Shown piece by piece: positions 12,808 to 31,016 of a stretch of 64,000 bases of DNA (position 1 is the first letter of the stretch; the number at the start of each line of letters is the position of its first letter). The position numbers and the translations under genes were made by a program. Under the pieces are notes generated by a model. It worked only from the letters and a program-made list of their open reading frames with translations, was not told the DNA's origin and did not search any database. The stretch comes from an uncultured Acidimicrobiia bacterium (lineage in GTDB: Bacteria > Actinomycetota > Acidimicrobiia > Spongiisociales > JAOTWH01), in assembly GCA_964347285.1 (NCBI GenBank), contig CAYFYE010000004.1:731-64730 (forward strand). Reading direction: 5' to 3'.

Positions 12808-12834
12808 ATATCGGCAGTGCATCGGGAGGCCTGA
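12808..12834 (-). promoter_or_regulatory. Putative sigma-28/WhiG-type promoter of the second pilin
   Basis: Minus strand TCAGG-N15-CCGATAT, just downstream of the pilA terminator. Confidence 0.6.
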
Positions 12835-12847
12835 AGGATTCCCAACG

Positions 12848-12881
12848 AGAAGACGGGCCCGGGGTTCCGGGCCCGTCTTCT
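12848..12881 (-). terminator. Strong hairpin downstream of pilA
   Basis: 15-bp perfect stem AGAAGACGGGCCCGG / CCGGGCCCGTCTTCT with a 4-nt loop, 20 nt after the pilA stop. Confidence 0.85.
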
Positions 12882-12901
12882 GCGTCGTATGCGCCTGGCG
12901 C

Positions 12902-13378
12902 TTACTTCCAGCCGTCGGCGGTGTAGCCGGCGGGCAGCGTGAAGGGAGCGGTCGTGTCGTCGGCCGGACACGGCGCCGTGGCCGCCGCTTTGGCATAGCC
13001 AACGCCGGCCGATTCGCCGACCCAGATCGAGAACACTCCGCCGGAGGCGCTCTCCCGCTCGAGGCAGACCGAGCCGGCGCCGGTGGTCACCGCCACGGCG
13101 ACCGCGCTGTCGGCGTCCAAGTCGATGCTGGGCTCGATCGTCTTCAGCTCGTCCTCGGTCGTCGAGTAGACGTTGTTCTCCGTCCACCAGGCCTGCTCGG
13201 CCAGGAGGGCGTTGCGCAGATCGCTCTGAGCGCTGCGGTCCTGGGCGTTCTTGCGGAAGCCCAGGAACGAGGGGATGGCAATGGCGACGAGCACTGCAAT
13301 GATGAGCACCACGACCATCAACTCGATGAGGGTGAAGCCTTCGTCCTTGTGAAGGCGTTCACTCATCCTTTTGAGCAT
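12902..13378 (-). CDS. pilA: Type IV major pilin candidate
   Basis: KDEG|FTLIELMVVVLIIAVLVAIAIP, AQSDLRNA, Cys pair; GGAGG SD, own promoter and own terminator. Confidence 0.93.
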   Translation of the reverse strand: MLKRMSERLHKDEGFTLIELMVVVLIIAVLVAIAIPSFLGFRKNAQDRSAQSDLRNALLAEQAWWTENNVYSTTEDELKTIEPSIDLDADSAVAVAVTTGAGSVCLERESASGGVFSIWVGESAGVGYAKAAATAPCPADDTTAPFTLPAGYTADGWK

Positions 13379-13432
13379 GTGCGAACCTCCTGAGACATTC
13401 GCGCCGGGCCGTACCTCGGCCTGACCAGGGGA

Positions 13433-13460
13433 ATATCGGTTGCGCCTTTTCGCGACTTGA
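13433..13460 (-). promoter_or_regulatory. Putative sigma-28/WhiG-type promoter of pilA
   Basis: Minus strand TCAAG-N16-CCGATAT. Confidence 0.7.
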
Positions 13461-13568
13461 GCGCTTCATGTGGTGGTTCGGCTACCCACCGTATGACTAG
13501 TCATCGAGGGCTCAGCGGTAACGGCGGAGTCGGCACCGAGGCGGAGCCGGAGGGTCGAGGGCCTTGAC

Positions 13569-14792
13569 TCAATTGAGCAGGTTGGCCACGTTGAACATCG
13601 GCAGGTAGAGCGCGATGAGGATCCCGCCAACCGTGGTACCGAGCAGGATGATCAGCAGGGGCTCGATGAGGCTGGTGAGGGCGTTCACGGTGTCGTCGAC
13701 CTCGCGGTCGTAGAAGTCCGACACCTTGGCGAGCATCTCGTCGATGGCGCCGGTCTCCTCGCCCACCGCCATCATCTGCACGACCATGGGCGGGAACACT
13801 GGATGGCGATCCAGCGGCGAGGCCATCGACTCGCCCTGTTTCACCGAATCTCTCACGTCGACCAGGGCTCTGGCCAGGACGGCGTTTCCGGCCGTCTGGG
13901 AGACGATCTCGATGGCGTTGAGGATGGGAACGCCGGTGCGGCTCAGCACCGACAGGCTGCGCGAGAAGCGGCTCAGTGCCGTCTTGTGGGTCAGTTTGCC
14001 GAAGACAGGAATCTTCAGCTTGAAGGCATCGAAGGCAGATCGCCCCGACTCGGTGGCAATCCAGCGGCGCAACCCAAACACGACGGCGATGATCAGCAGC
14101 ACGGCGACGTACCAGTAGGTCGACAGGATGTTGCCGGCGCTGATGAGGGCCTTGGTGGGGAGCGGCAGGTCGCCGCCCAGCTCGGAGTACATGCCCTCGA
14201 ACATCGGCACGACGAAGATGAGCATGGCCGTCACGATCACCGCCACCAGGCCCAGGACGACGATGGGGTAGGCCATCGCCGACTTCACCTTGGATCGCAG
14301 GGTGACCGTGGCCTCCATCATGTCGGCCAGTCGCTCCAGCGTTTCGTCCAGGACACCGCCGACCTCACCGGCCCGGACCATTGCCACGAAGAGGTTGTTG
14401 AACACTTTGGGGTGCTTCGACATCGCGGCCGACAGGCTGGAACCCTTCTCGACCTCGCCCCTCACCTCGCCCACGACGGTGGCCAGGGCAGCACTCTCGG
14501 TCTGCTGTTCGAGGATCGACAGGGTGCGGATCAAGGACAAGCCGGAATTCACCATCGTGGCGAACTGTCGACTGAAGATCGCGATCTCCTTCACTTTGAC
14601 CCGATTGGACAGAGCGGGGATCTTGATCTCCATCTGGAGAGCAGAAACCTTCTTCTTCTCGACCGAGAGCGGAACCATGCCCCGCTCCCGGAGCGTTCGA
14701 ACGACCGCGCCGGCCGAATCGCCCTCGAGTTCGCCGCTCAGGACGTTCCCGGACTTGTCCCTGACCTTGTATGCAAACGTTGATGCGCTCAT
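13569..14792 (-). CDS. pilC: Type IV pilus platform protein PilC (T2SS F family)
   Basis: FSRQFATMVNSGL, VRAGEVGGVLDETL, KVKSAMAYP, GEETGAIDEML, LPMFN. Confidence 0.96.
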   Translation of the reverse strand: MSASTFAYKVRDKSGNVLSGELEGDSAGAVVRTLRERGMVPLSVEKKKVSALQMEIKIPALSNRVKVKEIAIFSRQFATMVNSGLSLIRTLSILEQQTESAALATVVGEVRGEVEKGSSLSAAMSKHPKVFNNLFVAMVRAGEVGGVLDETLERLADMMEATVTLRSKVKSAMAYPIVVLGLVAVIVTAMLIFVVPMFEGMYSELGGDLPLPTKALISAGNILSTYWYVAVLLIIAVVFGLRRWIATESGRSAFDAFKLKIPVFGKLTHKTALSRFSRSLSVLSRTGVPILNAIEIVSQTAGNAVLARALVDVRDSVKQGESMASPLDRHPVFPPMVVQMMAVGEETGAIDEMLAKVSDFYDREVDDTVNALTSLIEPLLIILLGTTVGGILIALYLPMFNVANLLN

Positions 14793-16387
14793 CAGCCCTT
14801 ACCAACCAGATTCCGGAACTCCTCGGGGCTCTGGGAGTGATCGACTGCCGCGTCGTAGGAGACCTTTCCTTGTCTGACCAAAGCGGCCAGCGACTGATCC
14901 ATCGTCTGCATCCCGTACTTGGCGCCGGCCTGCATTGCCGAGGCGATCTGGTGCGTCTTGCCCTCACGGATCAAGTTGCGAATGGCGGAGTTGGCCACCA
15001 TCACCTCTACGGCCGGAATTCGCCCCCTGCCGTCTACGGTCGGCAGCAGCTGCTGGGACACGACCGCCTGGATGGAGCCGGACAGCTGGACCCGGACCTG
15101 CTGCTGCTGATGGCTGGGAAAGACGTCGATGACGCGATCGATCGATTGCGGGGCGTCCTGGGTGTGCAGCGTGCCCAGCACGAGATGGCCTGTCTCGGCG
15201 GCGGTTATTGCGGTTGAGACGGTCTCCAGATCCCGCATCTCGCCCACCAGGATCACGTCGGGGTCCTGACGGAGCGCGTGCTTGAGAGCCGCGGCAAACC
15301 CCAGAGTGTCGGTGCCCACCTCCCGTTGGTTGACGATGGCTTCTTTGTGCCGATGCATGAATTCGATGGGGTCTTCGACCGTCATCACGTGGCATTTTCG
15401 AGTTGCGTTGACGACGTCTATCAATGAAGCGAGCGTGGTCGACTTCCCCGAGCCGGTCGGCCCGGTGACGAGGACCAGGCCGCGTGTCAGCTTGGCGAAA
15501 TGGGCAATGATCGGCGGCATGGCCAACTCGGTGAGGGAGAGGATCTCGTTGGGAATGGCTCTCATGACCGCTCCCACCGAATCTCGTTGGAAGAACACGT
15601 TGACCCGGAAGCGGCCCTTGCCGGGAAGCGGATGCGAGCAATCCAGCTCCCGCGTCTCTTCGAGCTGCTCGCGCTGGCGGCCGGTGAGGATCTCGTAGAT
15701 CATCGAGCGAAGGACGGCCGGTAACAGCATCGGGAAATCATCGATCGGCGTCAGCTCGCCGTTGATCCGGATCTGGGGAGGCGATCCGGCAGTGAGATGT
15801 AGATCGGATCCGCCCCGCTCGAGCAGAGTCTCGAGGAGTTCGTTGACGTGGGGACGGTCACCTTGCTGCGCTTCGGCAATGACTTCGATACCGCGGGGCG
15901 CGGCAACGCCCTCCTGAGCGTCGCCGGCGGCGGATTCGGCCAGCCCGGCGTAAGCCGCCTTGATGAGCAGCTCGAGCGGCTGCTTGTGCGCCAATCCCAG
16001 CACCACCTCGCCCCCGGTGGCCCGGCGCAGCATGGCCAGCTTCTCCTGATTGAAGGGGTCGGCGACGGCCATCACGATTCGTCCGGTCTCGTCGATGCTC
16101 ATCGGCAGCGCTGCCAACCGGCGGGCCACCTCCGGGTCGAGGCGCCGCATCGCCGCCGGATCGGGTTGATCTCCGGTTTTGGGATCGAGGCTGAAGAAAT
16201 CCAGGCTGAGCTCTCCGGCCACCACGGAGAGAATGTCCTCACTCCGCACCCGCCCCTCGTCGACCAGCAGGCGCGGCAGCGGAGTGCCCGACTCCTCGGC
16301 TCGCTGAAGCTGGTGCTCCAGGTCGTCCTTGGTGAGGAGACGGTTATCGACCAGGAGTTGGCCGAGCTGCCGTGCGACCTTGCTCAT
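14792..16387 (-). CDS. pilT: PilT retraction ATPase with N-terminal MshEN/T2SSE_N-like extension
   Basis: GGSDLHL, GPTGSGKSTT, TVEDPIE, RQDPDVILVGEMRD, AETGHLV, PilT signature AIRNLIRE; core starts at about residue 180 of 531. Confidence 0.93.
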   Translation of the reverse strand: MSKVARQLGQLLVDNRLLTKDDLEHQLQRAEESGTPLPRLLVDEGRVRSEDILSVVAGELSLDFFSLDPKTGDQPDPAAMRRLDPEVARRLAALPMSIDETGRIVMAVADPFNQEKLAMLRRATGGEVVLGLAHKQPLELLIKAAYAGLAESAAGDAQEGVAAPRGIEVIAEAQQGDRPHVNELLETLLERGGSDLHLTAGSPPQIRINGELTPIDDFPMLLPAVLRSMIYEILTGRQREQLEETRELDCSHPLPGKGRFRVNVFFQRDSVGAVMRAIPNEILSLTELAMPPIIAHFAKLTRGLVLVTGPTGSGKSTTLASLIDVVNATRKCHVMTVEDPIEFMHRHKEAIVNQREVGTDTLGFAAALKHALRQDPDVILVGEMRDLETVSTAITAAETGHLVLGTLHTQDAPQSIDRVIDVFPSHQQQQVRVQLSGSIQAVVSQQLLPTVDGRGRIPAVEVMVANSAIRNLIREGKTHQIASAMQAGAKYGMQTMDQSLAALVRQGKVSYDAAVDHSQSPEEFRNLVGKG

Positions 16388-16409
16388 CTCCGTTCGTTCC
16401 CGATGTTCA

Positions 16410-18080
16410 CTAGGCGACTACCCGTAGGACTTCTTCCAACGTCGTCGATCCGAGGCGTACCTTCTCCAACCCGTCTTCGCGCAGGGTTTTCATGCCTTGC
16501 TCGACGGCCATTGCCTTGACCTCGTCCGAGGGCCGTCGCTCTACGGCCATCCGCTGAATCTCCTCGCTCACCAGCATCACCTCGTTGATGGCGACCCGGC
16601 CTCGATAGCCCGTCTTGGAGCAGTTGACGCACCCGGCGGCCCGGTGCAACTCGGGAAAGTCGTCGAGCGTGAACCCGAACCTGGCGAGCTCGGACGCTTC
16701 GGGTTGATAGATCTCCTTGCACTTTCCGCACAGGCGGCGAGCCAGACGCTGGGCCACCACACAATCGAGCGCCGAGCTCACCAGATAGGCCTCCACCCCC
16801 ATCTCGATGAGGCGTCCCACGCTCGAGGCGGCGTCGTTGGTGTGGAGCGTGGAGAGGACCAGGTGACCGGTCAGTGCGGCCTCGACCGCGATCTTGGCAG
16901 TTTCGGCGTCGCGGATCTCACCGACGAGCACGATGTCGGGATCGGAGCGCAGGATGGATTTCAGAGCAGTCGAGAAGAGGAGCCCGGCCTTCCTGTTGAC
17001 CTGGACCTGAGTGATTCCTTCGAGCCGGTACTCGACCGGATCCTCCACCGTGATGATGTTGACGTCGGGTTTGTTGAGGATGCCCAGCGTGGAATACAGG
17101 GTGGTGGTCTTGCCGGATCCGGTGGGTCCGGTCAGCAGGATCGCCCCGTACGGCTTCGTGTAGGAGGATCGATAGCGCTCCAGGGCGGCCGGGAGGAAGC
17201 CGAGTTCCTCGAGAGTGCCCACCGAATCTGTTTTGTCGAGGATTCGCAGCACGGCCTTCTCCCCGTACATGGACGGAAGGGTGGCGACCCGCAGATCGAT
17301 GGGGCGCCCCCCCACCCGCAGACTCACGCGGCCGTCCTGGGGCACCCGGCGCTCGGCGATGTTGATGTCGGCCATGATCTTCAGACGGGAGATCACTGCA
17401 GCGGCAATAGCGCGCGGGGTGCTCATGACCTCCTGGAGCACTCCGTCGATGCGGAAGCGCACCCGGAGGTCGCGCTCGCCCGGCTCGACGTGGATGTCCG
17501 ACGCTCGCTCGTTCACCGCCCGGGTGATCAACGTGTTGAGCAGCTTGACCACCGGCGCTTCCTCCACGGCGGCTTCCAGGCCCTCGAGATCCTCGGTTTG
17601 GTCCTCTTCTCCGAGAGCCAGATCGGCCAGGTCGGTCACCGATGCGCCGAAGCTGGACATTCGACGGATGGCCTCGCTGATGTCGGAGCGGGTGGCCACC
17701 TTGGGTGCGATGTCGTAGCCGGTGACCGCTCGCATGTCGTCGATGGCCAGCACGTTGGCGGGATCGGCCATTGCCACAACGAGCCGGTCCTCCTCGAAGC
17801 CGATCGGGACGGCGCCGTAGCGAGTGGCCAGGTAATCGGGTACCAATGCGGTGGCGGCCGGATCGATGTTCACGTTGCCGAGATCGACGTACTCCAACCC
17901 GATCTGGCGGGCGAGGACCTTGACGAGCTCGGCCTCGTCGATCAGCCCTTCGTCGACGAGCACCCGGCCCAGCGGCATGCCCGACTCGGCCTGGAGGCTG
18001 ACCGCCTTGTCGAGCTGGTCGCGACTCAGCAAGCCTTCTTCCAGCAGCATGGTGCCCAAATGGCGGGCGTCGCTCGTCAC
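16410..18080 (-). CDS. pilB: PilB extension ATPase with tandem MshEN motifs
   Basis: HLGTMLLEEGLL..PLGRVLVDEGLI..LARQ, ASDIHVEP, GPTGSGKTT, LRSDPD..GEIRD, CGKC/CVNC zinc motif; GTG 18080 after GGGGAG SD preferred over 18125. Confidence 0.96.
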   Translation of the reverse strand: MTSDARHLGTMLLEEGLLSRDQLDKAVSLQAESGMPLGRVLVDEGLIDEAELVKVLARQIGLEYVDLGNVNIDPAATALVPDYLATRYGAVPIGFEEDRLVVAMADPANVLAIDDMRAVTGYDIAPKVATRSDISEAIRRMSSFGASVTDLADLALGEEDQTEDLEGLEAAVEEAPVVKLLNTLITRAVNERASDIHVEPGERDLRVRFRIDGVLQEVMSTPRAIAAAVISRLKIMADINIAERRVPQDGRVSLRVGGRPIDLRVATLPSMYGEKAVLRILDKTDSVGTLEELGFLPAALERYRSSYTKPYGAILLTGPTGSGKTTTLYSTLGILNKPDVNIITVEDPVEYRLEGITQVQVNRKAGLLFSTALKSILRSDPDIVLVGEIRDAETAKIAVEAALTGHLVLSTLHTNDAASSVGRLIEMGVEAYLVSSALDCVVAQRLARRLCGKCKEIYQPEASELARFGFTLDDFPELHRAAGCVNCSKTGYRGRVAINEVMLVSEEIQRMAVERRPSDEVKAMAVEQGMKTLREDGLEKVRLGSTTLEEVLRVVA

Positions 18081-18115
18081 GTCGTGCTCCCCGAGAGAAG
18101 GGTTTCTCCCCCTCC

Positions 18116-18144
18116 TCGTCGGCACCTAGCGTGGCGTCCTTAAG
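18116..18144 (-). promoter_or_regulatory. Putative sigma-28/WhiG-type promoter of pilB-pilT-pilC
   Basis: Minus strand TTAAG-N16-CCGACGA in the short aroE-pilB gap. Confidence 0.55.
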
Positions 18145-18155
18145 ACATTCGGTGG

Positions 18156-18929
18156 TCAGGACGCCGCCGCCAGCGCCTCCCTCATTGCGTCTTCGGGAGG
18201 GGTCCGTCCGGTCCAGGCCCGGAAGGACTCCGCCGCCTGGGCGATCAGCATTTCCAATCCGGTCACCAGCGGGATCCCTCGGGCCCTCGCCTCGATCACC
18301 GCCGGCGTGGGCGTGCTGCCGTACGCCATGTCGAACAGTCCTTCGGCGTCGGCCAGTGACAGCGGGAGCCGCTCCCCTCTCATACCCAACGGCGTGGCGT
18401 TGACCAGTACGGACCCGCGAGCCTCTTCACCCCAGGGAACGACTAGCGCGGTGATGCCCAGTCTGTCCACGAGCTCGGTCGCCGCTTCGCGCCGGCGCGC
18501 CTGAACGGACGGCCTCCGTCCCTCTAGTGCCAAGAGAGCGGCGGCCGCTGCACCTCCCGCCCCCAGGATCGTGACCGGCGCCGCGTCGGGCAGCCCGGCT
18601 TGTTCCCAGGCCTGCACGACGCCACCGACATCGGTCAGCAAACCCTCGACTCCGGATGGACCACCCACGAGCGTGTTGACCGCTCCGGCTCGGGCGGCGT
18701 ATGGGTGCAGGTGATCGGCCAGTCCGGCGGCCCGCCGCTTGTGCGGCATCGTCACATTGGCTCCGTCGAGGATTCCCCGCCGGATCTCCTCGACTGCTTC
18801 GACAAGACGCGCGTCGTCGACCTTCCTGGCTTCGTACCGGCCCGCTATCCCCAGGGCGCGCAGGGCGGCGTTGTGGATGGCCGGCGACAGGGAATGAGCA
18901 ACGGGATCCCCGAGCAGTACCAGCCTCAC
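18156..18929 (-). CDS. aroE: Shikimate dehydrogenase
   Basis: GDPVAHSLSP, NVTMPHK, GAVNT, GAGGAA, NATPLGM, GLEMLIAQA. Confidence 0.95.
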   Translation of the reverse strand: MRLVLLGDPVAHSLSPAIHNAALRALGIAGRYEARKVDDARLVEAVEEIRRGILDGANVTMPHKRRAAGLADHLHPYAARAGAVNTLVGGPSGVEGLLTDVGGVVQAWEQAGLPDAAPVTILGAGGAAAAALLALEGRRPSVQARRREAATELVDRLGITALVVPWGEEARGSVLVNATPLGMRGERLPLSLADAEGLFDMAYGSTPTPAVIEARARGIPLVTGLEMLIAQAAESFRAWTGRTPPEDAMREALAAAS

Positions 18930-20020
18930 GGGATGATGCCGTCTCGGCGGGCCTGCTCTTTGAACTCGAGAAACTCCGCCTCGGTTTCGGCAAAGCTGTG
19001 TTCGCCGTTTCGGGAGGTCAGCACGTAAAAGAGGAAGTCGGTGTCGGCGGGATCGGCCGCTGCCTCCAGAGATGCAATCCCCACACCGGCTATTGGTGTG
19101 GGAGGGAGGCCGGCCTCCCGATAGGTGTTGTACGGCGAGTCGACCTCCAGATCCTCGAGGGACAACGCCGGCTTGCGCTCTTCGAGGGCATACTGCACGG
19201 TGGCGTCGATCTGGAGGAGCATGTCTGCGGCCAGCCGGTTGTAGATCACGCTGGCTACCACGGCCCGCTCCTCGGGTATCCGGACTTCTTCCTCGACGAG
19301 AGAGGCGACGACGATGGCCTCATACTGGTCGACCCCGAGCTCTTCGAGACGGGACCAATCCACCTCGGCCAGCCGCTGCACCATCGTATCGGCCAGCCGC
19401 TGCAGAATGGCTTGTGGGGAATCGTCGGCTCCGAGGGAATAGGTGTCGGGGAAAAGCATTCCTTCCCAGCCGGCCACCTCATTGGGTGCTTCCCCGAGCA
19501 GTGCCGACGTCACCGAGCCGTCCAAGAGCGGGGCCCGCAGCTCCTCCACCGAGTAACCGGTCGCCCGAGCCAGCGCGGCAAGTGTCTCTTCCAAGGTGAG
19601 GCCCTCGACAACGGTGACCGTGATCTCGCTGATGCTTCCCGCCACGATGGCATCGATGGCGGCGTCCAGCTCCATCCCGGTCTCCAATTCGAACGTGCCC
19701 GCTTTGAGCTCCGCCGCCAGCTGGCGCTGCTCGACCCTGGTCGCAAAGTCGTCGCCGGCCGCCACCACTCCCTGTTCCTCCAGCAAGTCACCGATGTCCT
19801 GGGCACTGCTACCGGGGTCGACACGAACCGTCACCACGATCCCGGCAGCTATCTCGGCGCCCGAATCGTCGAAAGACTGCCTCAGGTTGGTCCCCAGCAC
19901 CCGGGCGGCAACCAGTAGCGCAGCCAGCAGAGCGATGATGAGCACGGCGCCGGTCAGTGGGCCGATCCACGGCCTCTGTGCGGGGCCCGGCTCCCGGTAT
20001 GGGTAGCGCTCCCGACTCAT
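18926..20020 (-). CDS. mltG: Endolytic peptidoglycan transglycosylase MltG
   Basis: N-terminal TM, EGMLFPDTY, ASLVEEE, VIYNRL..MLLQIDAT, SPYNTY..GLPPTPI. Confidence 0.95.
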   Translation of the reverse strand: MSRERYPYREPGPAQRPWIGPLTGAVLIIALLAALLVAARVLGTNLRQSFDDSGAEIAAGIVVTVRVDPGSSAQDIGDLLEEQGVVAAGDDFATRVEQRQLAAELKAGTFELETGMELDAAIDAIVAGSISEITVTVVEGLTLEETLAALARATGYSVEELRAPLLDGSVTSALLGEAPNEVAGWEGMLFPDTYSLGADDSPQAILQRLADTMVQRLAEVDWSRLEELGVDQYEAIVVASLVEEEVRIPEERAVVASVIYNRLAADMLLQIDATVQYALEERKPALSLEDLEVDSPYNTYREAGLPPTPIAGVGIASLEAAADPADTDFLFYVLTSRNGEHSFAETEAEFLEFKEQARRDGIIP

Positions 20021-23054: not shown

Positions 23055-23067
23055 GGTCGCAGGCAGG

Positions 23068-23271: not shown

Positions 23272-23333
23272 CGGGCCAAGAGTACCGGGCGGACCCGACC
23301 GCGACTCGCCCAATCCGGGCGGGATGGACCTCG

Positions 23334-24701
23334 TCAGTCGGCAGCGGCTTCGTCCTCACCGGCGCGTGGCCGCAGCCGGGAACGGCCCATCACCCGGTCG
23401 ATCTGGTCCAGGCGCTCGGCGATGGCGCGCTCCCGTCCCCGGGCGACCGGCCGGTAGATCGTGAGTCCTTCTGCCTCTTCGGGCAGATAGCGCTGCTCGA
23501 CCAGAGCGTCCGGGTGATCGTGCGGGTAGCGATAGCCGACCCCGTGGCCGAGCGCCTTCTCCCCTGGGTAGGCGGCCGAGCGCAAATGGGCGGGCACCTC
23601 GGCCGCCGGGGTTTCGTGAACGGCCCTTTGGGCCGCGGCCATCGATGCTTTCACCGAGTTCGACTTCGGTGCCATGCTCAGGTATAGGGCGGCGTGGGTC
23701 AGGGCATGACCGGCCTCGGGCAGGCCGACATATTGGAGGGCCCGTGCCGCGTCCACCGCTATGCCCAGAGCGGTCGAGTCGGCCAGACCGATGTCCTCCG
23801 AGGCCAAGATGATCATCCGTCTGGCGATGAACTCGGGGTCTTCACCGGCCTCCAACATCGTATGCAGCCAATAGAGAGCCGCATCGGGGTCGGAGCCGCG
23901 TACGCTCTTGATGAACGCCGAGATGACGTCGTAATGCTGATCGCCCTTGCGGTCGTAGCGAATGATGCGGCGCTGCAGGGCCTCCTCGATCTCAGCCAGG
24001 TGGAGGATCTGGTTTTCGGCCAGCGTTGCCGCCACCTCGAGGGCGTTGAGGGCCAGCCGAGCATCTCCCCCTACCCGCTGAGCCAGGGCCCGTCGGGCCT
24101 CGTCCTTCATTTCCAGAACACCGTCCAGGCCCACCGGAGACACCAGGGCCCGGTCGATGAGCTCGCCCACTGCTTCCGGATCCAGTCCCTCCAAGCGGAA
24201 CAAGGTGCAGCGGCTCATGAGCGGAGAGTTGACTTCAAAGAAGGGGTTCTCGGTCGTGGCTCCGACGAGGATCACGATGCCCTCCTCCACCCCGGGAAGC
24301 AGGGCGTCCTGTTGTGCCTTCGTAAACCGGTGAATCTCATCGAGGAACAGCACGGTCCGGCGCCCCTCCTGCTCCAGGCGTTGGGTCGCCGATGCCAGCA
24401 CCTCCCGCACCTCCTTGACTCCGGCGGAAGTGGCGGAAAGGGCATCGAATTCGGCCCCCGAGTGAACGGCAACGAGACGGGCCAGGGTCGTCTTGCCGGA
24501 ACCGGGCGGACCCCAAAGGATCATCGATACCGGCGATCCAGACGAAACCATGGCCCGGAAGGCGCAACCAGGGCCCAGGAGGTGAGGCTGGCCTACGACC
24601 TCATCGAGCGTCCTCGGACGCATCCGCGCTGCCAGCGGAGCGGCTCGCCTGCGGCGCTCGGCCCGCTCACCGGCCCACAGGTCATCCATCGTTCCACTCA
24701 T
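23334..24701 (-). CDS. rarA: Replication-associated recombination protein A
   Basis: PLAARMRP, WGPPGSGKTT, DEIHRF, GATTENP, YDVISAFIKSVRGSDPDAA, SEDIG. Confidence 0.97.
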   Translation of the reverse strand: MSGTMDDLWAGERAERRRRAAPLAARMRPRTLDEVVGQPHLLGPGCAFRAMVSSGSPVSMILWGPPGSGKTTLARLVAVHSGAEFDALSATSAGVKEVREVLASATQRLEQEGRRTVLFLDEIHRFTKAQQDALLPGVEEGIVILVGATTENPFFEVNSPLMSRCTLFRLEGLDPEAVGELIDRALVSPVGLDGVLEMKDEARRALAQRVGGDARLALNALEVAATLAENQILHLAEIEEALQRRIIRYDRKGDQHYDVISAFIKSVRGSDPDAALYWLHTMLEAGEDPEFIARRMIILASEDIGLADSTALGIAVDAARALQYVGLPEAGHALTHAALYLSMAPKSNSVKASMAAAQRAVHETPAAEVPAHLRSAAYPGEKALGHGVGYRYPHDHPDALVEQRYLPEEAEGLTIYRPVARGRERAIAERLDQIDRVMGRSRLRPRAGEDEAAAD

Positions 24702-26481
24702 TGGAGCCTTCCTCCAGCTCCTTTCGCACCTCGGGCCGCAGGTCGATTCCTAGGTCGTAAAGCTGGAAATCGTCGACGGTAGTCGGCGATCCGGTCATCG
24801 GATCGAGGCCGCTCTGCGTCTTCGGGAACGGGATCACGTCCCGGATGCTCGAAGCCCCGACCAGGATGGCGATCAACCGGTCGAGGCCGACCGCGAAGCC
24901 GGCGTGCGGGGGTGTTCCGTAGCGGAGCGCCTCCATGAACCAGCCGAAGCGGCGCCCGGCCTGGTCGGACGAGATGCCGAGGATCTCGAAGACTTTTGCC
25001 TGGGTGTCCGGGTCGTGAATCCGGACGCTGCCCGACCCCAGCTCGGTGCCGTTGAGGACCAGGTCGTAGGCCCGGGCAGCCGCTTGGGCCGGAGCGGCGG
25101 CCATCTCCTCGACGTCCACCGGAGCGGTGAACGGGTGGTGAGCGGGCACCAGATCGCCGGCGGCGTCCACCTCGAAAACCGGGAAATCGATCACCCACAG
25201 GAACGAGAGCTCGTCGTGGCCCTCCGGCCGACCGAAGTCGAGCCGGAGTTGTCCCAGTGTCCCGCCCGCCGATCGGGCCTCATCGGCCACCAGCAACAGG
25301 AGGTCGCCACTTCCGGCGTCGAGGGCAGCAAGGATTGCCTCCTGCTCCGGCGGGCTCAGATACTTGGCGACCGGGGATCGCAGCGAGCGCTGGTCCTCGA
25401 CGACCATCCACACCAGTCCGGCCGCTCCCAGTTCCTGCGCTCTGGCGACCAGTCCGTCGAGGGCACTGCGAGCCAAGTCCTGGCGTCCGACGTTGATGGC
25501 CCGGACCACTCCGCCCGCCTCCAGGACGGCGGCGAACGCCTCGAACGAGGTGTCGGCCAAGACGGCCGATAGGTCGGCGATCTCCATCCCGAAGCGCACG
25601 TCGGGTTTGTCGGTGCCGTAACGGGCCATTGCATCGGCGTATGAAAGGCGTGGGAAAGGTGGCGACGGACTCGTTCCCCGCACTGCGGCTACGGCCGCCA
25701 CCACCGCCAGTTCTACCGCCTCCAGGACATCGTCGCGTCCCCAGAACGAGCCTTCCACGTCGAGCTGGGTGAACTCCACCTGGCGGTCGGCCCGAAAGTC
25801 CTCGTCGCGGTAGCAGCGGGCGATCTGGTAATAGCGCTCCACGCCGCCGATCATGAGGAGCTGCTTGAAGAGCTGAGGGGATTGAGGAAGGGCATAGAAG
25901 TTGCCTTTGCGCAACCTCGAGGGGACCAGCAGATCGCGGGCCCCCTCCGGCGTGGAACGCACCAATGTGGGCGTTTCTACCTCGAGGAAGCCTTCGGCGT
26001 CCAAGGCATGACGGATGGCGCTGATGGCCGCGGAGCGGGCCCGTAGGTTGGATGCCATCTTGGGCCGCCGCAGATCGAGATAGCGGTATTTGAGCCGTCG
26101 CAGCTCATCGGCGTCGACCCGATCGCCGATCTGTAGAGGCAGCGGCTCGGAAGGGCTGAGCACTCGCAGTTTGGTCAGGGCTACTTCCACATCTCCAGTC
26201 GGCATGTCGGGATTAGCGGTGCCCTCCGGCCTGGCCCGAACCGTGCCCGCCGCCGCCACGCAGTACTCCACTCTCATTCCTCGGGCCGCCTCGCCAACTG
26301 CCGGATCGGCCTCGGGGTCGACGACTGCCTGGACGATGCCGGAGGCGTCTCGTACATCGAGGAACACCACGCCGCCGTGGTCCCGTCGGTTGGCCACCCA
26401 GCCTGCCAGGCGCACCTCCGCTCCGGCGTCGTCGAGTCGGAGCGTGCCGGCGCCCCGATCCCTCAGCGGCTCTTCAGCCAC
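24682..26481 (-). CDS. aspS: Aspartate--tRNA ligase, likely non-discriminating (Asp/Asn)
   Basis: RRDHGG (His typical of ND-AspRS), YRYLDLRR, LPQSPQLFKQ, EFTQLD, HHPFT, GLDR. Confidence 0.98.
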   Translation of the reverse strand: MAEEPLRDRGAGTLRLDDAGAEVRLAGWVANRRDHGGVVFLDVRDASGIVQAVVDPEADPAVGEAARGMRVEYCVAAAGTVRARPEGTANPDMPTGDVEVALTKLRVLSPSEPLPLQIGDRVDADELRRLKYRYLDLRRPKMASNLRARSAAISAIRHALDAEGFLEVETPTLVRSTPEGARDLLVPSRLRKGNFYALPQSPQLFKQLLMIGGVERYYQIARCYRDEDFRADRQVEFTQLDVEGSFWGRDDVLEAVELAVVAAVAAVRGTSPSPPFPRLSYADAMARYGTDKPDVRFGMEIADLSAVLADTSFEAFAAVLEAGGVVRAINVGRQDLARSALDGLVARAQELGAAGLVWMVVEDQRSLRSPVAKYLSPPEQEAILAALDAGSGDLLLLVADEARSAGGTLGQLRLDFGRPEGHDELSFLWVIDFPVFEVDAAGDLVPAHHPFTAPVDVEEMAAAPAQAAARAYDLVLNGTELGSGSVRIHDPDTQAKVFEILGISSDQAGRRFGWFMEALRYGTPPHAGFAVGLDRLIAILVGASSIRDVIPFPKTQSGLDPMTGSPTTVDDFQLYDLGIDLRPEVRKELEEGSNEWNDG

Positions 26482-27692
26482 TCCCCCACCTCCTCGATGG
26501 CGATCTCGCTCTCGGACCCGTCCGCCATCGAGCGCATGGTCACCCTTCCCCGCTCCATCTCCTCACCGACGACGGCGACCGCCGCTGCACCGCGGCGGTG
26601 GGCCGCCTTGAATTGGGCCCGGACCGTTGCTTCTCGGGCCAGCCGATCGGTGCGGAGCCCATCGGAGCGAAGTCGAGCGGTCAACTCTTCGGCCTGTCCA
26701 CGTCGGGCCGGGTCGGCCAAGACGACGAAGACGTCGAGTGCCGGAATCTCCTCGGTCCCCTCCAGGGCCAAGACGATCCGGTCCATCCCCAATGAAAACC
26801 CGACGGCAGGGGTGGGGACCCCGCCCAGCGCCTCGGCCAGGCCGTCGTAGCGTCCGCCGCCGCCGAGCTCGGCCTGAGCCGCCTCGTACGACGGCGACGT
26901 GTACTCGAACACGGTCCGGGTGTAGTAGTCCAAGCCCCGGACCAGCCTGGGCTCTTCGCGGTACTTGATCCCGGCTTCGTCCAGACCTTGCTTGACCGCC
27001 TGGTAGTGGTCGCCACTCGCCTTGTTCAGCCAATCGACGGGGACGGGAGCATCGGCGAGCTTGGGAGCATCCACTTTGCAGTCGAGGACCCGCAGGGGGT
27101 TGAGGTCCATGCGACTCCGGCAGTCGTCACACAACTCCTGACGCCGCTGCTCGAGGTATTCGAGGAGAATCCGGCGGTAGGCGGCCCGTGACTCGGGATC
27201 GCCTATCGAATTGATACCGACTTCGACGTCGGTGATGCCGATTTCGCGGTAGTAGCGGTGCCCGATCTCGATCACCTCGACGTCGGCGCCCGGAGCGTCC
27301 TCGCCGACGTATTCCACCCCCACCTGAAAGAACTGCCGGCGTCTTCCTGCTTGGGGCTGCTCGTAGCGGAACATAGGACCGGCGTAGGCGACTTTCATGA
27401 TCCCGGGCGACCCGGCCTGCAGGTAAGCCCGTACCACCGACGCAGTGGCCTCGGGGCGAAGCGTCATGGACCGGCCCGCCTTGTCCTCCCAGGTGAACAT
27501 TTGCTTTTGCACCACCTCGGTGGCCTCACCCACCGTCCGCTCGAACACCTCGGTTGCCTCGAAGATGGGGGTCATGATCAGTTCGTACCCATATCGCTCG
27601 GTGATGCCGTCCCACACCCGCAGCAGGCGTCGCCACCGGCGGGAAGCCGGGGGAAGGATGTCGTCGGTCCCTTTGGGGGCGCGGAACTTCAC
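26463..27692 (-). CDS. hisS: Histidine--tRNA ligase
   Basis: PKGTDD, LRPEATAS, FRYEQPQAGRRRQFFQ, VRGLDYYTRTVFE, GGGRYDGL; GTG 27692. Confidence 0.98.
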   Translation of the reverse strand: MKFRAPKGTDDILPPASRRWRRLLRVWDGITERYGYELIMTPIFEATEVFERTVGEATEVVQKQMFTWEDKAGRSMTLRPEATASVVRAYLQAGSPGIMKVAYAGPMFRYEQPQAGRRRQFFQVGVEYVGEDAPGADVEVIEIGHRYYREIGITDVEVGINSIGDPESRAAYRRILLEYLEQRRQELCDDCRSRMDLNPLRVLDCKVDAPKLADAPVPVDWLNKASGDHYQAVKQGLDEAGIKYREEPRLVRGLDYYTRTVFEYTSPSYEAAQAELGGGGRYDGLAEALGGVPTPAVGFSLGMDRIVLALEGTEEIPALDVFVVLADPARRGQAEELTARLRSDGLRTDRLAREATVRAQFKAAHRRGAAAVAVVGEEMERGRVTMRSMADGSESEIAIEEVGEWLKSR

Positions 27693-28345
27693 TGGATGGG
27701 CTCCTGGAGGAAGGGATTGGAGCGGCGTTCCCGGGCCAGCGTAGTCGCGGGCCCGTGGCCGGGCAGCACCTCGGTGTCGGCGGGCAGCGGGAGCACCCTG
27801 GCCGTCATCGAGGCCATCAAAGTAGGCAAGTCTCCGCCGGGCAGGTCCCACCGGCCCACGCTCCCGGCAAAGAGCAAGTCACCGGAGAACAGCAGGCCCT
27901 CCCGCTCGACGTAGAAGCAGCAGTGCCCCGGGGTATGGCCCGGGGTGTGGAGGACTTCCAAGGAGAGACCGGCGATGTCGAGGACCCGACCGTCGGACAA
28001 CCTTTCGTAGCGTTCCGGTTGAGCGAACTCCCCGGCCGGCAACGCCCCCAGAAACCAAGCCACCTGCATGGCGGGATCGGCTGCCAGCCACTCGTCGTCG
28101 GGGTGGATATACGCAGCCGCCGAGGTCCGCTCGACGACGTCGCCGGCCCCGCCCAGGTGGTCGACGTGCCCGTGAGTCAACAGGAGAGCGGCCCCTGCCA
28201 ACCGATGGCGCTCTAGCAGCGACGTGACTCCATCCACGTCGGGAGGGGCGTCGACGATGATCGCCGGGCCGCCCGCCTCGGCGGCCAAGACGTAGCAGTT
28301 GGTTTGGGCGGCCCAAAGGGGCCTGTTGTCGAGGACGAGGGACAT
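27689..28345 (-). CDS. MBL-fold metallo-hydrolase (glyoxalase II-like)
   Basis: LLTHGHVDHLGG, HTPGHTPGH, FSGDLLF, PGHG; usual neighbour of hisS. Confidence 0.93.
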   Translation of the reverse strand: MSLVLDNRPLWAAQTNCYVLAAEAGGPAIIVDAPPDVDGVTSLLERHRLAGAALLLTHGHVDHLGGAGDVVERTSAAAYIHPDDEWLAADPAMQVAWFLGALPAGEFAQPERYERLSDGRVLDIAGLSLEVLHTPGHTPGHCCFYVEREGLLFSGDLLFAGSVGRWDLPGGDLPTLMASMTARVLPLPADTEVLPGHGPATTLARERRSNPFLQEPIQ

Positions 28346-28408
28346 CGCCTTGGCAGCGTACTCAGGTGGAAAGGGACTGTGATCCCCGGCGAGAAGCCGG
28401 GAATCGTC

Positions 28409-29860
28409 CTACAGCAGTTCCTGGGTGGCGACGATCTGGACTCCGTCAAACTTCTTGAGCATGAAGTCCGAGGTCAAATCATCGTCCATGACGATATTCG
28501 CACTGCCTTCGGTCGAGCTCTCCCGAAGGGGGCTCGACGCCGAGTCGCAGGCTGATTCCACGACGACGTTCCCAAAGACGTTGATCCCCGAGGAGTACCG
28601 GACCTGCTCATGGGTTGCCAGAAGTCCTTTGACGCCGATCTGCGACTCGATATTCAGATCACCGCCGGCAACGAAGACGTATTTGTTCGCTCCGGGAGGT
28701 GCCTCGAGATCCCCCTGGCTCATGACGTGGATGGTGCCGCCCGACGTCGAGCAGTCCATCGCGGCGTCAACCGTTCCGGCCAGGATGCTCCACTGGGTGA
28801 TGCCGTCCCTCGGCCTCTTCGGCCGCACGATCACGTCGGCGCCGTCTACATAGAACACTCCGGGCGGAACGCGGCTCCTCTCGAACTCGACCGTCGTAGA
28901 TCCCACTCCGAATATGCCGAGATTGGGATGCATGAACGCTCCCGAGCACGGCTTGCCCGGCTCCGCCCTCATCTCCTCGGCGACGGCCGTATTGGCCGGA
29001 CCGGCATACACCCCGCTGGCGGGTGGCGAGAAAGACGCCCCGAAGCGGCAGACGTCGTACTCGGAACGATGGTGGGCACTGAGTGGATTGATGGATGGGA
29101 TGAACTGGTACTCCACCTCGACGGGACAGTCGGGCCCCTCCGTGGATTCCGGGTCGTATCCGGTGACGCACTCGTCGACGATTGCGGCTCCGCCCTGAAC
29201 GTCCATCTTTCCGTTCGTATGCGCGCCGCCGGTGATGAAGCTGCCACCGGTGATCGTGAGTGGACCGTCGGAGAGGATGGCGACTCCAGGGTCCCATGCC
29301 TCGGTTCCGACGAGCGGCCAGTAATCCACGACGACTACTCGCTCCTTGCGGACGCCGGCGTCGAGAGCAGGAGTGAAGCCCACCCCGTACAGCACCAGCC
29401 CCTCCTCGGGGCCGACGACCACGACCTCACCTTCTGGGGTCTCGAGGACCGTGTCGGGCTCGGCGCTCGCCAGAGACTCGGCGGCATCGAGCACATCCTG
29501 TTTGGTGGGAGAGGACGGCATGGAGACCATATTCACTGCATCACTCAGGTCGAGGCTTTCGATGACGTCATCAACGTCGTCGAACGTCGTGGGGACATCA
29601 TCGAAGATCGGATCGAGCGCGGTGAGGGTCGTATCGATTCCACTCTCGGCGACGTGGACCGCCTGTTCGAATGTGCGATCTCCACTGACCACGCGGTTTT
29701 CGCTCGCAGTAGTGACGACCAAGACCACGGATATGGCGACGAGGATGGCACCCAGGATGACCACCGAGGCCATGGCCAGTCCGCGTTCTTCCCTGCGCAG
29801 CCGATTGGCCAGACCCATGATTCGACGGTCTCTCGGCGTGCCGGTTTTACTCATCATCAC
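28409..29860 (-). CDS. PilX-like minor pilin with large C-terminal domain
   Basis: REERG|LAMASVVILGAILVAISVVLVV (no E5), A..VAESG motif, Gly/Val/Ile-rich beta-repeat C-terminus, 6 Cys. Confidence 0.8.
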   Translation of the reverse strand: MMMSKTGTPRDRRIMGLANRLRREERGLAMASVVILGAILVAISVVLVVTTASENRVVSGDRTFEQAVHVAESGIDTTLTALDPIFDDVPTTFDDVDDVIESLDLSDAVNMVSMPSSPTKQDVLDAAESLASAEPDTVLETPEGEVVVVGPEEGLVLYGVGFTPALDAGVRKERVVVVDYWPLVGTEAWDPGVAILSDGPLTITGGSFITGGAHTNGKMDVQGGAAIVDECVTGYDPESTEGPDCPVEVEYQFIPSINPLSAHHRSEYDVCRFGASFSPPASGVYAGPANTAVAEEMRAEPGKPCSGAFMHPNLGIFGVGSTTVEFERSRVPPGVFYVDGADVIVRPKRPRDGITQWSILAGTVDAAMDCSTSGGTIHVMSQGDLEAPPGANKYVFVAGGDLNIESQIGVKGLLATHEQVRYSSGINVFGNVVVESACDSASSPLRESSTEGSANIVMDDDLTSDFMLKKFDGVQIVATQELL

Positions 29861-29864
29861 GCTC

Positions 29865-30383
29865 CTATTGGCTGTTCCGCGCCTCGACCGTCGTTTGCAC
29901 CGATCGCGCTTTTACCGAGTCGGAAGGGTCGAGATCGATGGCGAGGGTGAGGGTGAGGGTGTTGTCGGCCACGGCGAACTCACTGTCGGCGGCGATCACT
30001 CCCCGCGCCACCATTGCGGCCGGGTCCGAGCTGTCGTCGGTCGACCGCTGCAGGGTTCCGTCACCCAAGATCTCATAGGTGACCAGCTCCCCGACATCGG
30101 GAGCTCCGCCACTTCTGTCCTCGTCCACCCAGAACGAGAATGAATCGTCGCCGCTGCCGGGCGGGTAGATCTCGGTCGCGAAGCGGACCTCCTTGACAAT
30201 GCGACTCTTGGCGGCGCGCAGGGCGTCGATCACTTCCAGACGCGCCTCTTGGGCACGGTCGGCGCGCACTACAGCGATCATCCACGTGACCATGCCGGCG
30301 GTCACTACTGCAGCGATGAACATCGCCACCATCAGCTCGACCAGCGTCAAACCCCGCTGGTCACGGTGCGTGAACCTCCTCAC
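29865..30383 (-). CDS. PilW/PulJ-like minor pilin
   Basis: RDQRG|LTLVELMVAMFIAAVV; GTG 30383 overlaps the upstream stop. Confidence 0.85.
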   Translation of the reverse strand: MRRFTHRDQRGLTLVELMVAMFIAAVVTAGMVTWMIAVVRADRAQEARLEVIDALRAAKSRIVKEVRFATEIYPPGSGDDSFSFWVDEDRSGGAPDVGELVTYEILGDGTLQRSTDDSSDPAAMVARGVIAADSEFAVADNTLTLTLAIDLDPSDSVKARSVQTTVEARNSQ

Positions 30384-30871
30384 CGGGACCTCGCTCTCGA
30401 GAACAGCGACGAGGTGTGGTGTTCGCGCTCGGTGCCTCCGGCCGACCAGTTGACGATGACGACCACGCGTCGCAGGTCGGCGTCGACTTCGGTGACGTAC
30501 TGCCAAACGACGAATTCCTGGCCGTCGAGAGTTTCGATGCGCCTCGGGTCGATGAGACCGGCACTGGCGTCGATGACCAGCGCTTCGTTGCCGGGGAGGT
30601 CGGCCGCCGACGCTTTGAGGTTGCTTCCGGCCACCCTAGGGTCACCCGCTTCGACGGTCGACATCGCCACCTCGTCCCAGGTCATCGATCGAGCCGTCTC
30701 CACGCCCTCGATGCTGAGCTGGGTAGCCTGCTCCTGGATCCGTGCTTCGCGACCGCTGCGAAAGCTGGCGTTCAACGAAGCCCCCAGCGCGACGAACAGG
30801 ATCACCGCCAGGACCAGTGCCACCAGCCCTTCCACGATCGTGAAGCCGCGCTCGTTCACGGCGAAATCCAT
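30380..30871 (-). CDS. PilV/PulI-like minor pilin
   Basis: NERG|FTIVEGLVALVLAVILFVALG...VRRV-type C-terminal strand (LRRVVVIVNW); start ATG 30871 or 30916. Confidence 0.85.
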   Translation of the reverse strand: MDFAVNERGFTIVEGLVALVLAVILFVALGASLNASFRSGREARIQEQATQLSIEGVETARSMTWDEVAMSTVEAGDPRVAGSNLKASAADLPGNEALVIDASAGLIDPRRIETLDGQEFVVWQYVTEVDADLRRVVVIVNWSAGGTEREHHTSSLFSRARSR

Positions 30872-30925
30872 GGATCGCCGACTCGTTGGGCGCGTTGTCC
30901 TGGGGCTGGTTGCCATTCAGTAGGG

Positions 30926-30953
30926 CTATCGACCACCGTTCGCGGCGACTTGA
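30926..30953 (-). promoter_or_regulatory. Putative sigma-28/WhiG-type promoter of the minor-pilin operon
   Basis: Minus strand TCAAG-N16-TCGATAG; shares TCAAGTCGC with the pilA promoter. Confidence 0.65.
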
Positions 30954-31016
30954 GGCGGGTCCGCCACGACAGTGGGTCATTCGCCTCCGAAAGGAATGAC
31001 TAGCTACCGGAACCGG

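What the first reader, a model, noticed from the sequence alone, without database searches (positions are those of the whole stretch)
12808..30953. Shared sigma-28/WhiG-type promoter marks four pilus transcription units
Seen, all on the minus strand and all intergenic: pilin2 TCAGG-N15-CCGATAT (12808-12834), pilA TCAAG-N16-CCGATAT (13433-13460), pilB TTAAG-N16-CCGACGA (18116-18144) and minor pilins TCAAG-N16-TCGATAG (30926-30953). The pilA and pilV copies share TCAAGTCGC although they lie 17 kb apart. Known: this resembles FliA/SigD/WhiG promoters (TAAA-N15/16-GCCGATAA). WhiG-RsiG has been linked to type IV pilus genes in Rubrobacter, and FliA-family sigmas to Actinoplanes zoospore genes. Inference: a WhiG-like regulon joins the split pil loci.
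Basis: partly seen in the sequence, partly recalled or inferred. Interest (0 to 1): 0.62.

Follow-up and report, generated by a model that had tools for sequence, protein, structure and literature searches.

The report
WhiG-type promoters drive type IV pilus genes
In this non-flagellated Acidimicrobiia genome, the pilus genes sit behind promoters of the "flagellar" sigma-28/WhiG type, which extends a link already shown in Rubrobacter to another actinobacterial class.

Summary
The four sites exist as described; the only error is that the pilB TTAAG starts at 18143, not 18144.

They belong to a real promoter class:
- T[AC]AAG-N14-16-N[CT]CGATA occurs 13 times in the 2.63-Mb genome. 11 of these lie just upstream of a same-strand gene.
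- A matrix trained without the window's pil sites finds 16 upstream sites where shuffles give about 0.1.
- The minor-pilin and pilA sites score high, pilin2 is borderline, and pilB is weak on its own.
- All four positions are conserved in Acidimicrobiia relatives. There, every strong hit lay before a pilin, pilB or pilT gene, and none lay before about 49 other genes.

The genome has one WhiG orthologue and no FlhA. The other targets include c-di-GMP enzymes, as in the Rubrobacter WhiG regulon.

WhiG control of type IV pili is already published, so this is a new member of a known kind.

Open points:
- No RsiG was found.

Two side leads:
- A conserved FlgM-like mini-protein.
- A conserved ACTAGT element upstream of the pilin promoters.

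The parts
30926..30953 (-). WhiG/sigma-28-type promoter of the minor-pilin operon: TCAAG-N16-TCGATAG, 60 nt after the relA stop
   Evidence: Sequence. Matrix score 23.6, reached by none of 20 shuffles. An equivalent site sits 9-60 nt after relA in 6 of 11 relatives that carry minor pilins there.
28409..30871 (-). Minor-pilin operon: 30380-30871 (or start 30916), 29865-30383, and a 483-aa protein at 28409-29857
   Evidence: N_methyl motif in two of the ORFs. Gene calls.
18116..18143 (-). Candidate WhiG-type promoter of pilB-pilT-pilC: TTAAG-N16-CCGACGA, in the aroE-pilB spacer
   Evidence: Sequence. Weak matrix score of 8.9. The same position holds T[AC]AAG-N15-GCCGA[AC] in 9 of the 11 closest Acidimicrobiia loci, and the AG and GCCG columns are invariant. 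G006 also has TTAAG.
13569..18080 (-). pilB (16410-18080), pilT with an MshEN N-terminus (14792-16387), pilC (13569-14792)
   Evidence: Pfam T2SSE, MshEN and T2SSF. The pilB start was fixed by alignment to relatives.
13433..13460 (-). WhiG-type promoter of pilA: TCAAG-N16-CCGATAT
   Evidence: Sequence. Matrix score 21.7, E about 0.05. An equivalent site lies 83-100 nt upstream of the prepilin Gly codon in most relatives.
12902..13378 (-). pilA, the major pilin
   Evidence: N_methyl motif. The FTLIELMVVVLIIA N-terminus is shared with relatives.
12843..12887 (-). Strong hairpin terminator after pilA
   Evidence: Free energy -41 kcal/mol, z = -6.5, stem followed by UCUUCUCGUU. It implies that pilin2 needs its own promoter.
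12808..12834 (-). WhiG-type promoter of pilin2(-pilD): TCAGG-N15-CCGATAT. The -10 GCCGATAT is perfect and the -35 is degenerate.
   Evidence: Sequence. Matrix score 15.5, p about 1e-3 for this spacer. TCAAG...GCCGAAA or TCGATA lies 29-51 nt upstream of the Gly codon in L007, L008, L010 and L013.
9094..12781 (-). pilin2 (12320-12781), pilD (11556-12308), pilM (10364-11434), pilN (9759-10364), pilO (9094-9735)
   Evidence: Pfam N_methyl, Peptidase_A24, PilM_2, PilN and PilO.
13493..13504 (.). Palindrome ATGACTAGTCAT about 40 nt upstream of the pilA -35. Conserved ACTAGT upstream element of unknown function.
30997..31003 (-). CTAGTCA element about 45 nt upstream of the minor-pilin -35
   Evidence: It is conserved after relA in 8 of 11 relatives that carry minor pilins there.

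Best explanation
The four sites are promoters read by RNA polymerase carrying the genome's single sigma-28-family factor. That factor is a WhiG orthologue encoded at G000 C25:3920-4720, outside the window. The organism has no flagellum.

In this organism WhiG drives a regulon whose core is the type IVa pilus. It has four transcription units in the window: the minor pilins, pilB-pilT-pilC, pilA, and pilin2-pilD with perhaps pilMNO. A second pilT lies elsewhere in the genome. The regulon also includes c-di-GMP-turnover enzymes, a histidine kinase, a CheY-like receiver and cell-wall enzymes.

The split pil loci, 12.8 kb apart and separated by housekeeping genes, are therefore co-ordinated by one sigma factor.

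Shown: the motif class, its genome-wide enrichment, its conservation before pil genes, and the presence and type of the sigma factor.

Inferred: that WhiG is the factor that reads these sites, the transcription starts, and upstream control by c-di-GMP.
For: Motif class:
- The strict motif has 13 genome hits, 11 upstream of a same-strand gene.
- T[AC]AA-N15-17-[GA]CCGATA has 8 hits, all 8 upstream of a gene, where 0.8 is expected.
- A matrix built without the pil sites gives 16 sites at E <= 0.1.
- In a whole-genome scan, 16 of 20 top hits lie in the 10.6% of the genome that is intergenic.

Sigma factor:
- One WhiG-family sigma scores 272 bits and 281 bits to S. venezuelae WhiG in PDB 6PFJ.
- No FlhA in this genome or in 29 of 30 relatives.

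Conservation:
- pilB site; pilA and pilin2 sites; minor-pilin site.
- In 48 relatives' loci, all 28 upstream hits scoring >= 13 precede pilins, pilB or MshEN-pilT. None precedes any of about 49 other genes.

Context:
- Other targets are a GGDEF-EAL protein, an HD-GYP protein, a second PilT and Ppk1, matching the Rubrobacter regulon (PMC8325347).
- A strong terminator after pilA means pilin2 needs its own promoter.
- No sigma-70-like promoters were found in 12000-31500.
- All 21 relatives with PilB also have WhiG.
Against:
- The pilB site is not significant on its own: score 8.9, an unusual TTAA at -35 and CGACGA at -10.
- pilin2 has a degenerate -35.
- Neither pilB nor pilin2 would pass the published search rule, which needs an exact T[AC]AA.
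- Six or seven relatives have WhiG but no PilB, so WhiG is not dedicated to pili.
- No RsiG was detected.
- Gene calls come from my own simple caller.
Confidence: 0.8

Rival explanations
1. Only the pilA and minor-pilin sites are real WhiG promoters. The pilB and pilin2 matches are chance look-alikes, and those units are read from other promoters or by read-through.
For: pilB scores 8.9, and about 69 hits that good are expected in the upstream set. pilin2 scores 15.5, with about 2 expected. Both miss the exact T[AC]AA -35 used in published searches.
Against: The pilB position carries T[AC]AAG-N15-GCCGA in 9 of the 11 closest loci, and the TTAAG variant recurs in G006. pilin2 follows a -41 kcal/mol terminator, and its relatives have TCAAG...CCGAAA at the same distance. 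No sigma-70-like alternative was found.
Confidence: 0.12
2. The motif is read by another sigma factor, or is a transcription-factor site, and its likeness to sigma-28 promoters is coincidental.
For: Four other sigma-70-family genes exist. No experiment ties WhiG to the motif in this organism.
Against: The bipartite form, the fixed spacer and both half-sites match the established FliA/SigD/WhiG consensus. WhiG is the only family member above the cut-off. The target set mirrors the Rubrobacter WhiG regulon, which has mapped transcription starts.
Confidence: 0.05
3. The matches are composition artefacts of GC-rich intergenic DNA, not functional elements.
For: CCGA and TCAAG are common words in a 67% GC genome. 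The matrix also hits conserved coding sequence, for example inside relA at 32271-32302.
Against: Dinucleotide-aware shuffles give about 0.1 hits where 16 are seen. There is a roughly 34-fold intergenic excess. Hits are restricted to pil genes in relatives.
Confidence: 0.03

Closest known systems
Rubrobacter radiotolerans (RsiG)2-(c-di-GMP)2-WhiG regulon (Schumacher et al. 2021, PMC8325347)
   Same: A non-flagellated, unicellular actinobacterium. WhiG-type promoters define several transcription units in the type IV pilus cluster. Further WhiG promoters sit before DGC/PDE genes. The WhiG residues that contact c-di-GMP and RsiG are conserved here (K57, G61, R62; T235, L236, Y239, E240, L242).
   Different: A different class (Acidimicrobiia). 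The -35 is mostly TCAAG rather than TAAA. The pil genes are split by 12.8 kb of housekeeping genes. No RsiG was detected. No transcription start mapping is available.
Phylum-wide predicted WhiG regulons (Denis et al. 2026, bioRxiv 10.64898/2026.01.14.699351)
   Same: The consensus T(A/C)AA-N16-GCCGA. Type IV pili and c-di-GMP enzymes are recurrent predicted targets.
   Different: That survey names Cellulomonadaceae, Cryptosporangiaceae, Sanguibacteraceae, Rubrobacteraceae, Jonesiaceae and Actinoplanes. Acidimicrobiia are not mentioned anywhere in the text. Its rule would find only two of the four sites here.
Classical FliA/SigD-FlgM flagellar regulon
   Same: The same promoter consensus and sigma family. 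A FlgM-like mini-protein is encoded in this genome.
   Different: There is no flagellar export gate, so FlgM secretion through a hook-basal body cannot be the release mechanism. The targets are pili, not flagella.

Membership tests
Sigma-28 (FliA/SigD/WhiG)-dependent promoter | Bipartite -35 T(A/C)AA and -10 (G)CCGA(TAA), written T(A/C)AA-N16-GCCGA | tested here: met
   pilA is TCAA-N16-ACCGATAT. The minor-pilin site is TCAA-N16-GTCGATAG. pilin2 is TCAG-N15-GCCGATAT, with one -35 mismatch and a spacer one base short. pilB is TTAA-N16-GCCGACGA, with a -35 mismatch. Two sites meet the rule fully and two meet it partly.
Sigma-28 (FliA/SigD/WhiG)-dependent promoter | A cognate sigma-28-family factor is encoded in the genome | tested here: met
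   TIGR02479 at 272 bits, above the 189.6 cut-off, and the only such hit. 281 bits to S. venezuelae WhiG in PDB 6PFJ.
Sigma-28 (FliA/SigD/WhiG)-dependent promoter | Motif over-represented upstream of genes relative to chance | tested here: met
   There are 16 sites where shuffles give about 0.1, and 11 of 13 strict hits lie upstream of a same-strand gene.
Sigma-28 (FliA/SigD/WhiG)-dependent promoter | Transcription start about 6-9 nt downstream of the -10; transcription depends on the sigma factor | not testable with these tools
No culture or in vitro system is available.
[quoted passage not shown] | WhiG2-type sigma that keeps the c-di-GMP contacts (K57, G61, R62) and the RsiG contacts (T235, L236, Y239, E240, L242) | tested here: met
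   All eight residues are identical in the alignment to 6PFJ_A (PLVKFVAGRV; VVTLYYYEGL).
[quoted passage not shown] | An RsiG anti-sigma factor with the motif E-x3-S-x2-R-x3-Q-x3-D | tested here: inconclusive
   No small protein carries the motif, even when it is relaxed. The one exact hit is a 434-aa membrane protein with no likeness to any PDB chain at E < 0.1, RsiG chains included. The genome is 90% complete, the search used the motif only, and no RsiG profile was at hand.
[quoted passage not shown] | WhiG promoters before type IV pilus genes and before DGC/PDE genes | tested here: met
   Four pil units in the window and PilT2 at C76. A GGDEF-EAL gene at C60:8050 and an HD-GYP gene at C98.
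Flagellar FliA/FlgM regulon | Flagellar export and structural genes present | tested here: not met
   No FHIPEP/FlhA in this genome. Only 1 of 30 relatives and 16 of 121 genomes of the class have it.
Flagellar FliA/FlgM regulon | A FlgM anti-sigma-28 factor | tested here: inconclusive
   A 50-aa ORF at C77:10175-10327 matches the C-terminal part of Pfam FlgM at 31 bits, above the 25-bit cut-off. It is conserved as a 34-58-aa ORF in relatives. The best PDB hit is FlgM 9wsf_B at E = 0.007. Binding to WhiG was not tested.

The most novel reading that the evidence does not exclude
In non-flagellated Acidimicrobiia, the WhiG pilus regulon may be governed differently from Rubrobacter and Streptomyces.

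- A conserved FlgM-like mini-protein of 34-58 aa could act as the anti-sigma factor, with or instead of an RsiG that was not detected. It was found in 21 of 121 genomes of the class. All 21 have WhiG and 16 lack flagella.
- A conserved ACTAGT palindrome about 40 nt upstream of the -35 of the pilin promoters could be the site of a second, unidentified regulator.

The published view is that FlgM was lost early in the phylum.
Probability: 0.22. Interest if true: 0.6.

Novelty: new member of a known kind. Interest (0 to 1): 0.4.

Why it matters
This finding adds Acidimicrobiia, a widespread and mostly uncultured class, to the lineages where the old flagellar sigma factor has been kept after loss of flagella and drives type IV pili and c-di-GMP enzymes. 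WhiG is present in 87 of 121 sampled Acidimicrobiia genomes, but FlhA in only 16.

The result supports the idea that WhiG control of pili is ancestral in the phylum and not a Rubrobacter peculiarity.

It also supplies a lineage-specific consensus, T(C/A)AAG-N16-(C/T)CGATA, for annotating promoters in metagenome-assembled genomes. It shows that strict published search rules miss conserved weak sites such as pilB.

The missing RsiG and the FlgM-like mini-protein make the question of what controls WhiG here directly testable.

Tried and rejected
- **BldD as the factor for the ACTAGT palindrome.** The perfect palindrome TGACTAGTCA also lies upstream of a BldD orthologue (C20:14208-14693), and its half-sites resemble the BldD box. 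In 28 relatives' loci, only about two carry a similar palindrome before bldD. Four carry the canonical TCAC-N5-GTGA instead. The idea is not supported.
- **RNA structure or known RNA family at the promoters.** There are no Rfam hits in the window. The relA-minor-pilin spacer folds no better than shuffles, z = -0.2.
- **RsiG search by motif.** Exact and relaxed motifs, in called genes and in six frames, gave nothing convincing.
- **Autoregulation of whiG.** No site scores above 9.1 upstream of whiG or xerC.
- **A faulty control.** My first matrix control used reverse complements of upstream regions. It was contaminated by divergent promoters and was replaced by shuffles.
- **The shared TCGC after TCAAG at pilA and the minor pilins.** It is not conserved in relatives, so it is probably chance.
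Full report
**Observation**

- pilin2: TCAGG-N15-CCGATAT (12834-12808).
- pilA: TCAAG-N16-CCGATAT (13460-13433).
- pilB: TTAAG-N16-CCGACGA (18143-18116).
- Minor pilins: TCAAG-N16-TCGATAG (30953-30926).

**Gene layout**

Pfam gives the following minus-strand layout:
- relA (31017-33209), then site 4.
- Three minor-pilin genes (30871-28409).
- A metallo-beta-lactamase-fold gene, hisS, aspS, rarA, alaS, mltG and aroE, then site 3.
- pilB, pilT (with an MshEN N-terminus) and pilC, then site 2.
- pilA, a hairpin, then site 1.
- pilin2, pilD, pilM, pilN and pilO.

pilB starts at GTG 18080. This matches the conserved GTGACnACCG start of relatives, so site 3 is intergenic.

**Organism and sigma factor**

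PilB's best matches are Acidimicrobiia metagenome-assembled genomes, at 64-72% identity. The assembly is 2.63 Mb in 187 contigs, 67% GC and 90% complete.

It encodes one sigma factor above the FliA/WhiG cut-off (272 bits), at C25:3920-4720 between xerC and rpsB-tsf-pyrH-frr. From memory, this is the neighbourhood of whiG in Streptomyces.

The sigma factor scores 281 bits against S. venezuelae WhiG in PDB 6PFJ/6PFV, and 158 bits against E. coli FliA. It keeps all eight residues that contact c-di-GMP or RsiG in that structure (K57, G61, R62, T235, L236, Y239, E240, L242; the residue list is).

There is no FlhA in this genome or in 29 of 30 relatives. Across 121 genomes of the class, WhiG is present in 87 and FlhA in 16.

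**Is the motif more than chance?**

I made rough gene calls with my own caller: 2546 genes, leaving 10.6% of the genome intergenic.
- T[AC]AA-N15-17-[GA]CCGATA has 8 hits in the genome. All 8 are intergenic and upstream of a same-strand gene, where 0.8 is expected.
- T[AC]AAG-N14-16-N[CT]CGATA has 13 hits. 11 are upstream of a same-strand gene. One more is intergenic near a contig end, and one lies at the 5' edge of a called gene. The look-alikes ending in CGACA are all coding.
- A two-block weight matrix was seeded and iterated without the window's pil sites. It finds 16 upstream sites at a score where Markov shuffles give about 0.1.
- Scanning every position of the genome gives 20 hits scoring >= 19.5. 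16 of them are intergenic and upstream of a gene.

Scores of the four sites:
- Minor pilins 23.6 and pilA 21.7. Essentially no shuffle hits are this good.
- pilin2 15.5, with about 2 such hits expected genome-wide, or p about 1e-3 for its 120-nt spacer.
- pilB 8.9, or p about 0.02 for its 75-nt spacer.

**The regulon**

Other targets are listed:
- A second PilT (C76, with a perfect TAAAG-N16-CCGATA).
- A GGDEF-EAL protein (C60).
- An HD-GYP protein fused to cadherin-like repeats (C98).
- Polyphosphate kinase (C16).
- A histidine kinase (C22) and a CheY-like receiver (C33).
- An L,D-transpeptidase, a SpoIID-like protein, a CAP-domain protein, a patatin and a histidine phosphatase.

Pili plus c-di-GMP enzymes is exactly what was found for WhiG in Rubrobacter, where transcription starts were mapped (PMC8325347).

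**Comparative evidence**

*pilB.* In the aroE-pilB spacer, 9 of the 11 closest loci carry T[AC]AAG-N15-GCCGA[AC] at the same place. In the alignment, the AG of the -35 and the GCCG of the -10 are invariant, while mean column identity is 53%. The genus-level relative G006 has the same unusual TTAAG.

*pilA.* A TCAA(G/C/T)...CCGATA site lies 83-100 nt upstream of the prepilin Gly codon in nearly all relatives with a recognisable pilA.

*pilin2.* TCAAG...GCCGAAA or TCGATA lies 29-51 nt upstream of the Gly codon in L007, L008, L010 and L013, again after a terminator. In the window, pilA is followed by a -41 kcal/mol hairpin with z = -6.5, so pilin2 needs its own promoter.

*Minor pilins.* Of 29 relatives' relA loci, 11 have minor pilins directly downstream. 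6 of those 11 have a site scoring >= 15.7, placed 9-60 nt after the relA stop. The 18 loci without pilins there have none above 13.3.

*Control.* In 48 relatives' loci, all 28 upstream regions with a hit scoring >= 13 precede pilins, pilB or the MshEN-pilT gene. None of about 49 other upstream regions has such a hit. In several relatives that lack the pilB site, the site sits before pilT instead.

*Phyletic pattern.* All 21 relatives with PilB have WhiG. Two relatives of one genus lack both. Six or seven have WhiG without PilB. WhiG is therefore needed where there are pili, but it is not dedicated to them.

**Mechanism**

The best reading is that WhiG holoenzyme initiates at all four sites. 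This ties together two pil loci that are separated by 12.8 kb of housekeeping genes.

My per-site confidence is:
- about 0.9 for pilA and for the minor pilins;
- about 0.75 for pilin2;
- about 0.7 for pilB.

No sigma-70-like promoters were found in 12000-31500.

How WhiG itself is controlled is open:
- It looks RsiG- and c-di-GMP-competent, but no RsiG was found by motif.
- A 50-aa ORF at C77:10175-10327 matches the sigma-binding C-terminal part of Pfam FlgM at 31 bits, above the 25-bit cut-off.
- Its counterparts in relatives are 34-58-aa ORFs in a conserved ychF / DUF368 / dtd / antiporter neighbourhood. All seven aligned members hit only FlgM in Pfam, and the best PDB hit is FlgM in a FliA complex at E = 0.007.
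- In the class it is detected in 21 of 121 genomes. All 21 have WhiG and 16 have no flagellum.
- The literature holds that FlgM is absent from almost all actinobacterial flagellar clusters. This is a lead, not a finding.

**A second cis element**

An ACTAGT-centred element lies about 40 nt upstream of the -35 at pilA (ATGACTAGTCAT, 13504-13493) and at the minor pilins (CTAGTCA, 31003-30997). It lies 18 nt upstream of the -35 at the GGDEF-EAL gene.

In relatives, 12 of 93 matrix hits have CTAGT or ACTAG within 80 nt upstream, where 0.7 is expected. Ten of the 12 are pilA or minor-pilin promoters, one lies before pilB (L131), and one (L089) was not assigned to a gene. Most sit at -31 to -50.

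I tested whether this could be the operator of the BldD orthologue, and that is not supported.

**Comparison and novelty**

WhiG control of type IV pili is established in Rubrobacter and Actinoplanes. It is predicted in several Actinomycetes families.

Acidimicrobiia are not mentioned in the 2026 survey. A search for papers holding 'Acidimicrobiia', 'type IV pil' and 'sigma' returned three, and none makes the link.

This is a new member of a known kind, with a lineage-typical TCAAG -35.

**Limits**

- Gene calls and the matrix are my own and are rough.
- The relatives are not phylogenetically independent.

Noticed in passing
window 13493-13504 and 30997-31003; G000 C60:7994: A conserved ACTAGT-centred element (ATGACTAGTCAT or CTAGTCA) lies about 40 nt upstream of the -35 of the pilA and minor-pilin promoters, and 18 nt upstream at a GGDEF-EAL gene. 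It is conserved at the same offset in relatives: 12 of 93 matrix hits have it, where 0.7 is expected. The binding factor is unknown, and a BldD link was tested and not supported.
   Followed up: partly
G000 C77:10175-10327 (-), outside the window; loci L147-L158: A 50-aa ORF matches the C-terminal, sigma-binding part of FlgM (Pfam, 31 bits against a 25-bit cut-off) in a genome without flagella. It is conserved as a 34-58-aa ORF near ychF, DUF368, dtd and an antiporter in relatives. It was detected in 21 of 121 genomes of the class, all with WhiG.
   Followed up: partly
G000 C20:14208-14693 (-); loci L159-L187: A BldD orthologue: an XRE helix-turn-helix domain plus RQD-x8-RRDD, which resembles the c-di-GMP motif of Streptomyces BldD (recalled from memory). 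It is present in 28 of 31 relatives. Four relatives have a canonical TCAC-N5-GTGA box 40-60 nt upstream of it.
   Followed up: partly
loci L140, L142-L146, L133 (relatives): In relatives that lack a WhiG-type site before pilB, a strong site (score up to 21.5) sits before the next ATPase gene, the MshEN-domain pilT.
   Followed up: partly
window 14792-18080: Both PilB and the 531-aa PilT carry MshEN domains (Pfam). This domain binds c-di-GMP in Vibrio MshE, so c-di-GMP might act on the pilus motors as well as on transcription.
   Followed up: no
G000 C98:3-2798 and C16:5985-8057: Two of the six best-scoring WhiG-type promoters precede an HD-GYP phosphodiesterase fused to six cadherin-like repeats and polyphosphate kinase Ppk1.
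   Followed up: no
window 32271-32302 (-), inside relA: A matrix hit (score 15.3) inside relA recurs at the same coding position in most relatives. It reflects a conserved peptide (FKDY...PK), not a promoter, and is a caution for matrix scans of coding DNA.
   Followed up: yes
G000 C60:10229-10669 (-): A 146-aa protein behind a strong WhiG-type promoter has an N-terminus that loosely resembles a prepilin (RG/VKPTE followed by a hydrophobic stretch). It has no Pfam match.
   Followed up: no
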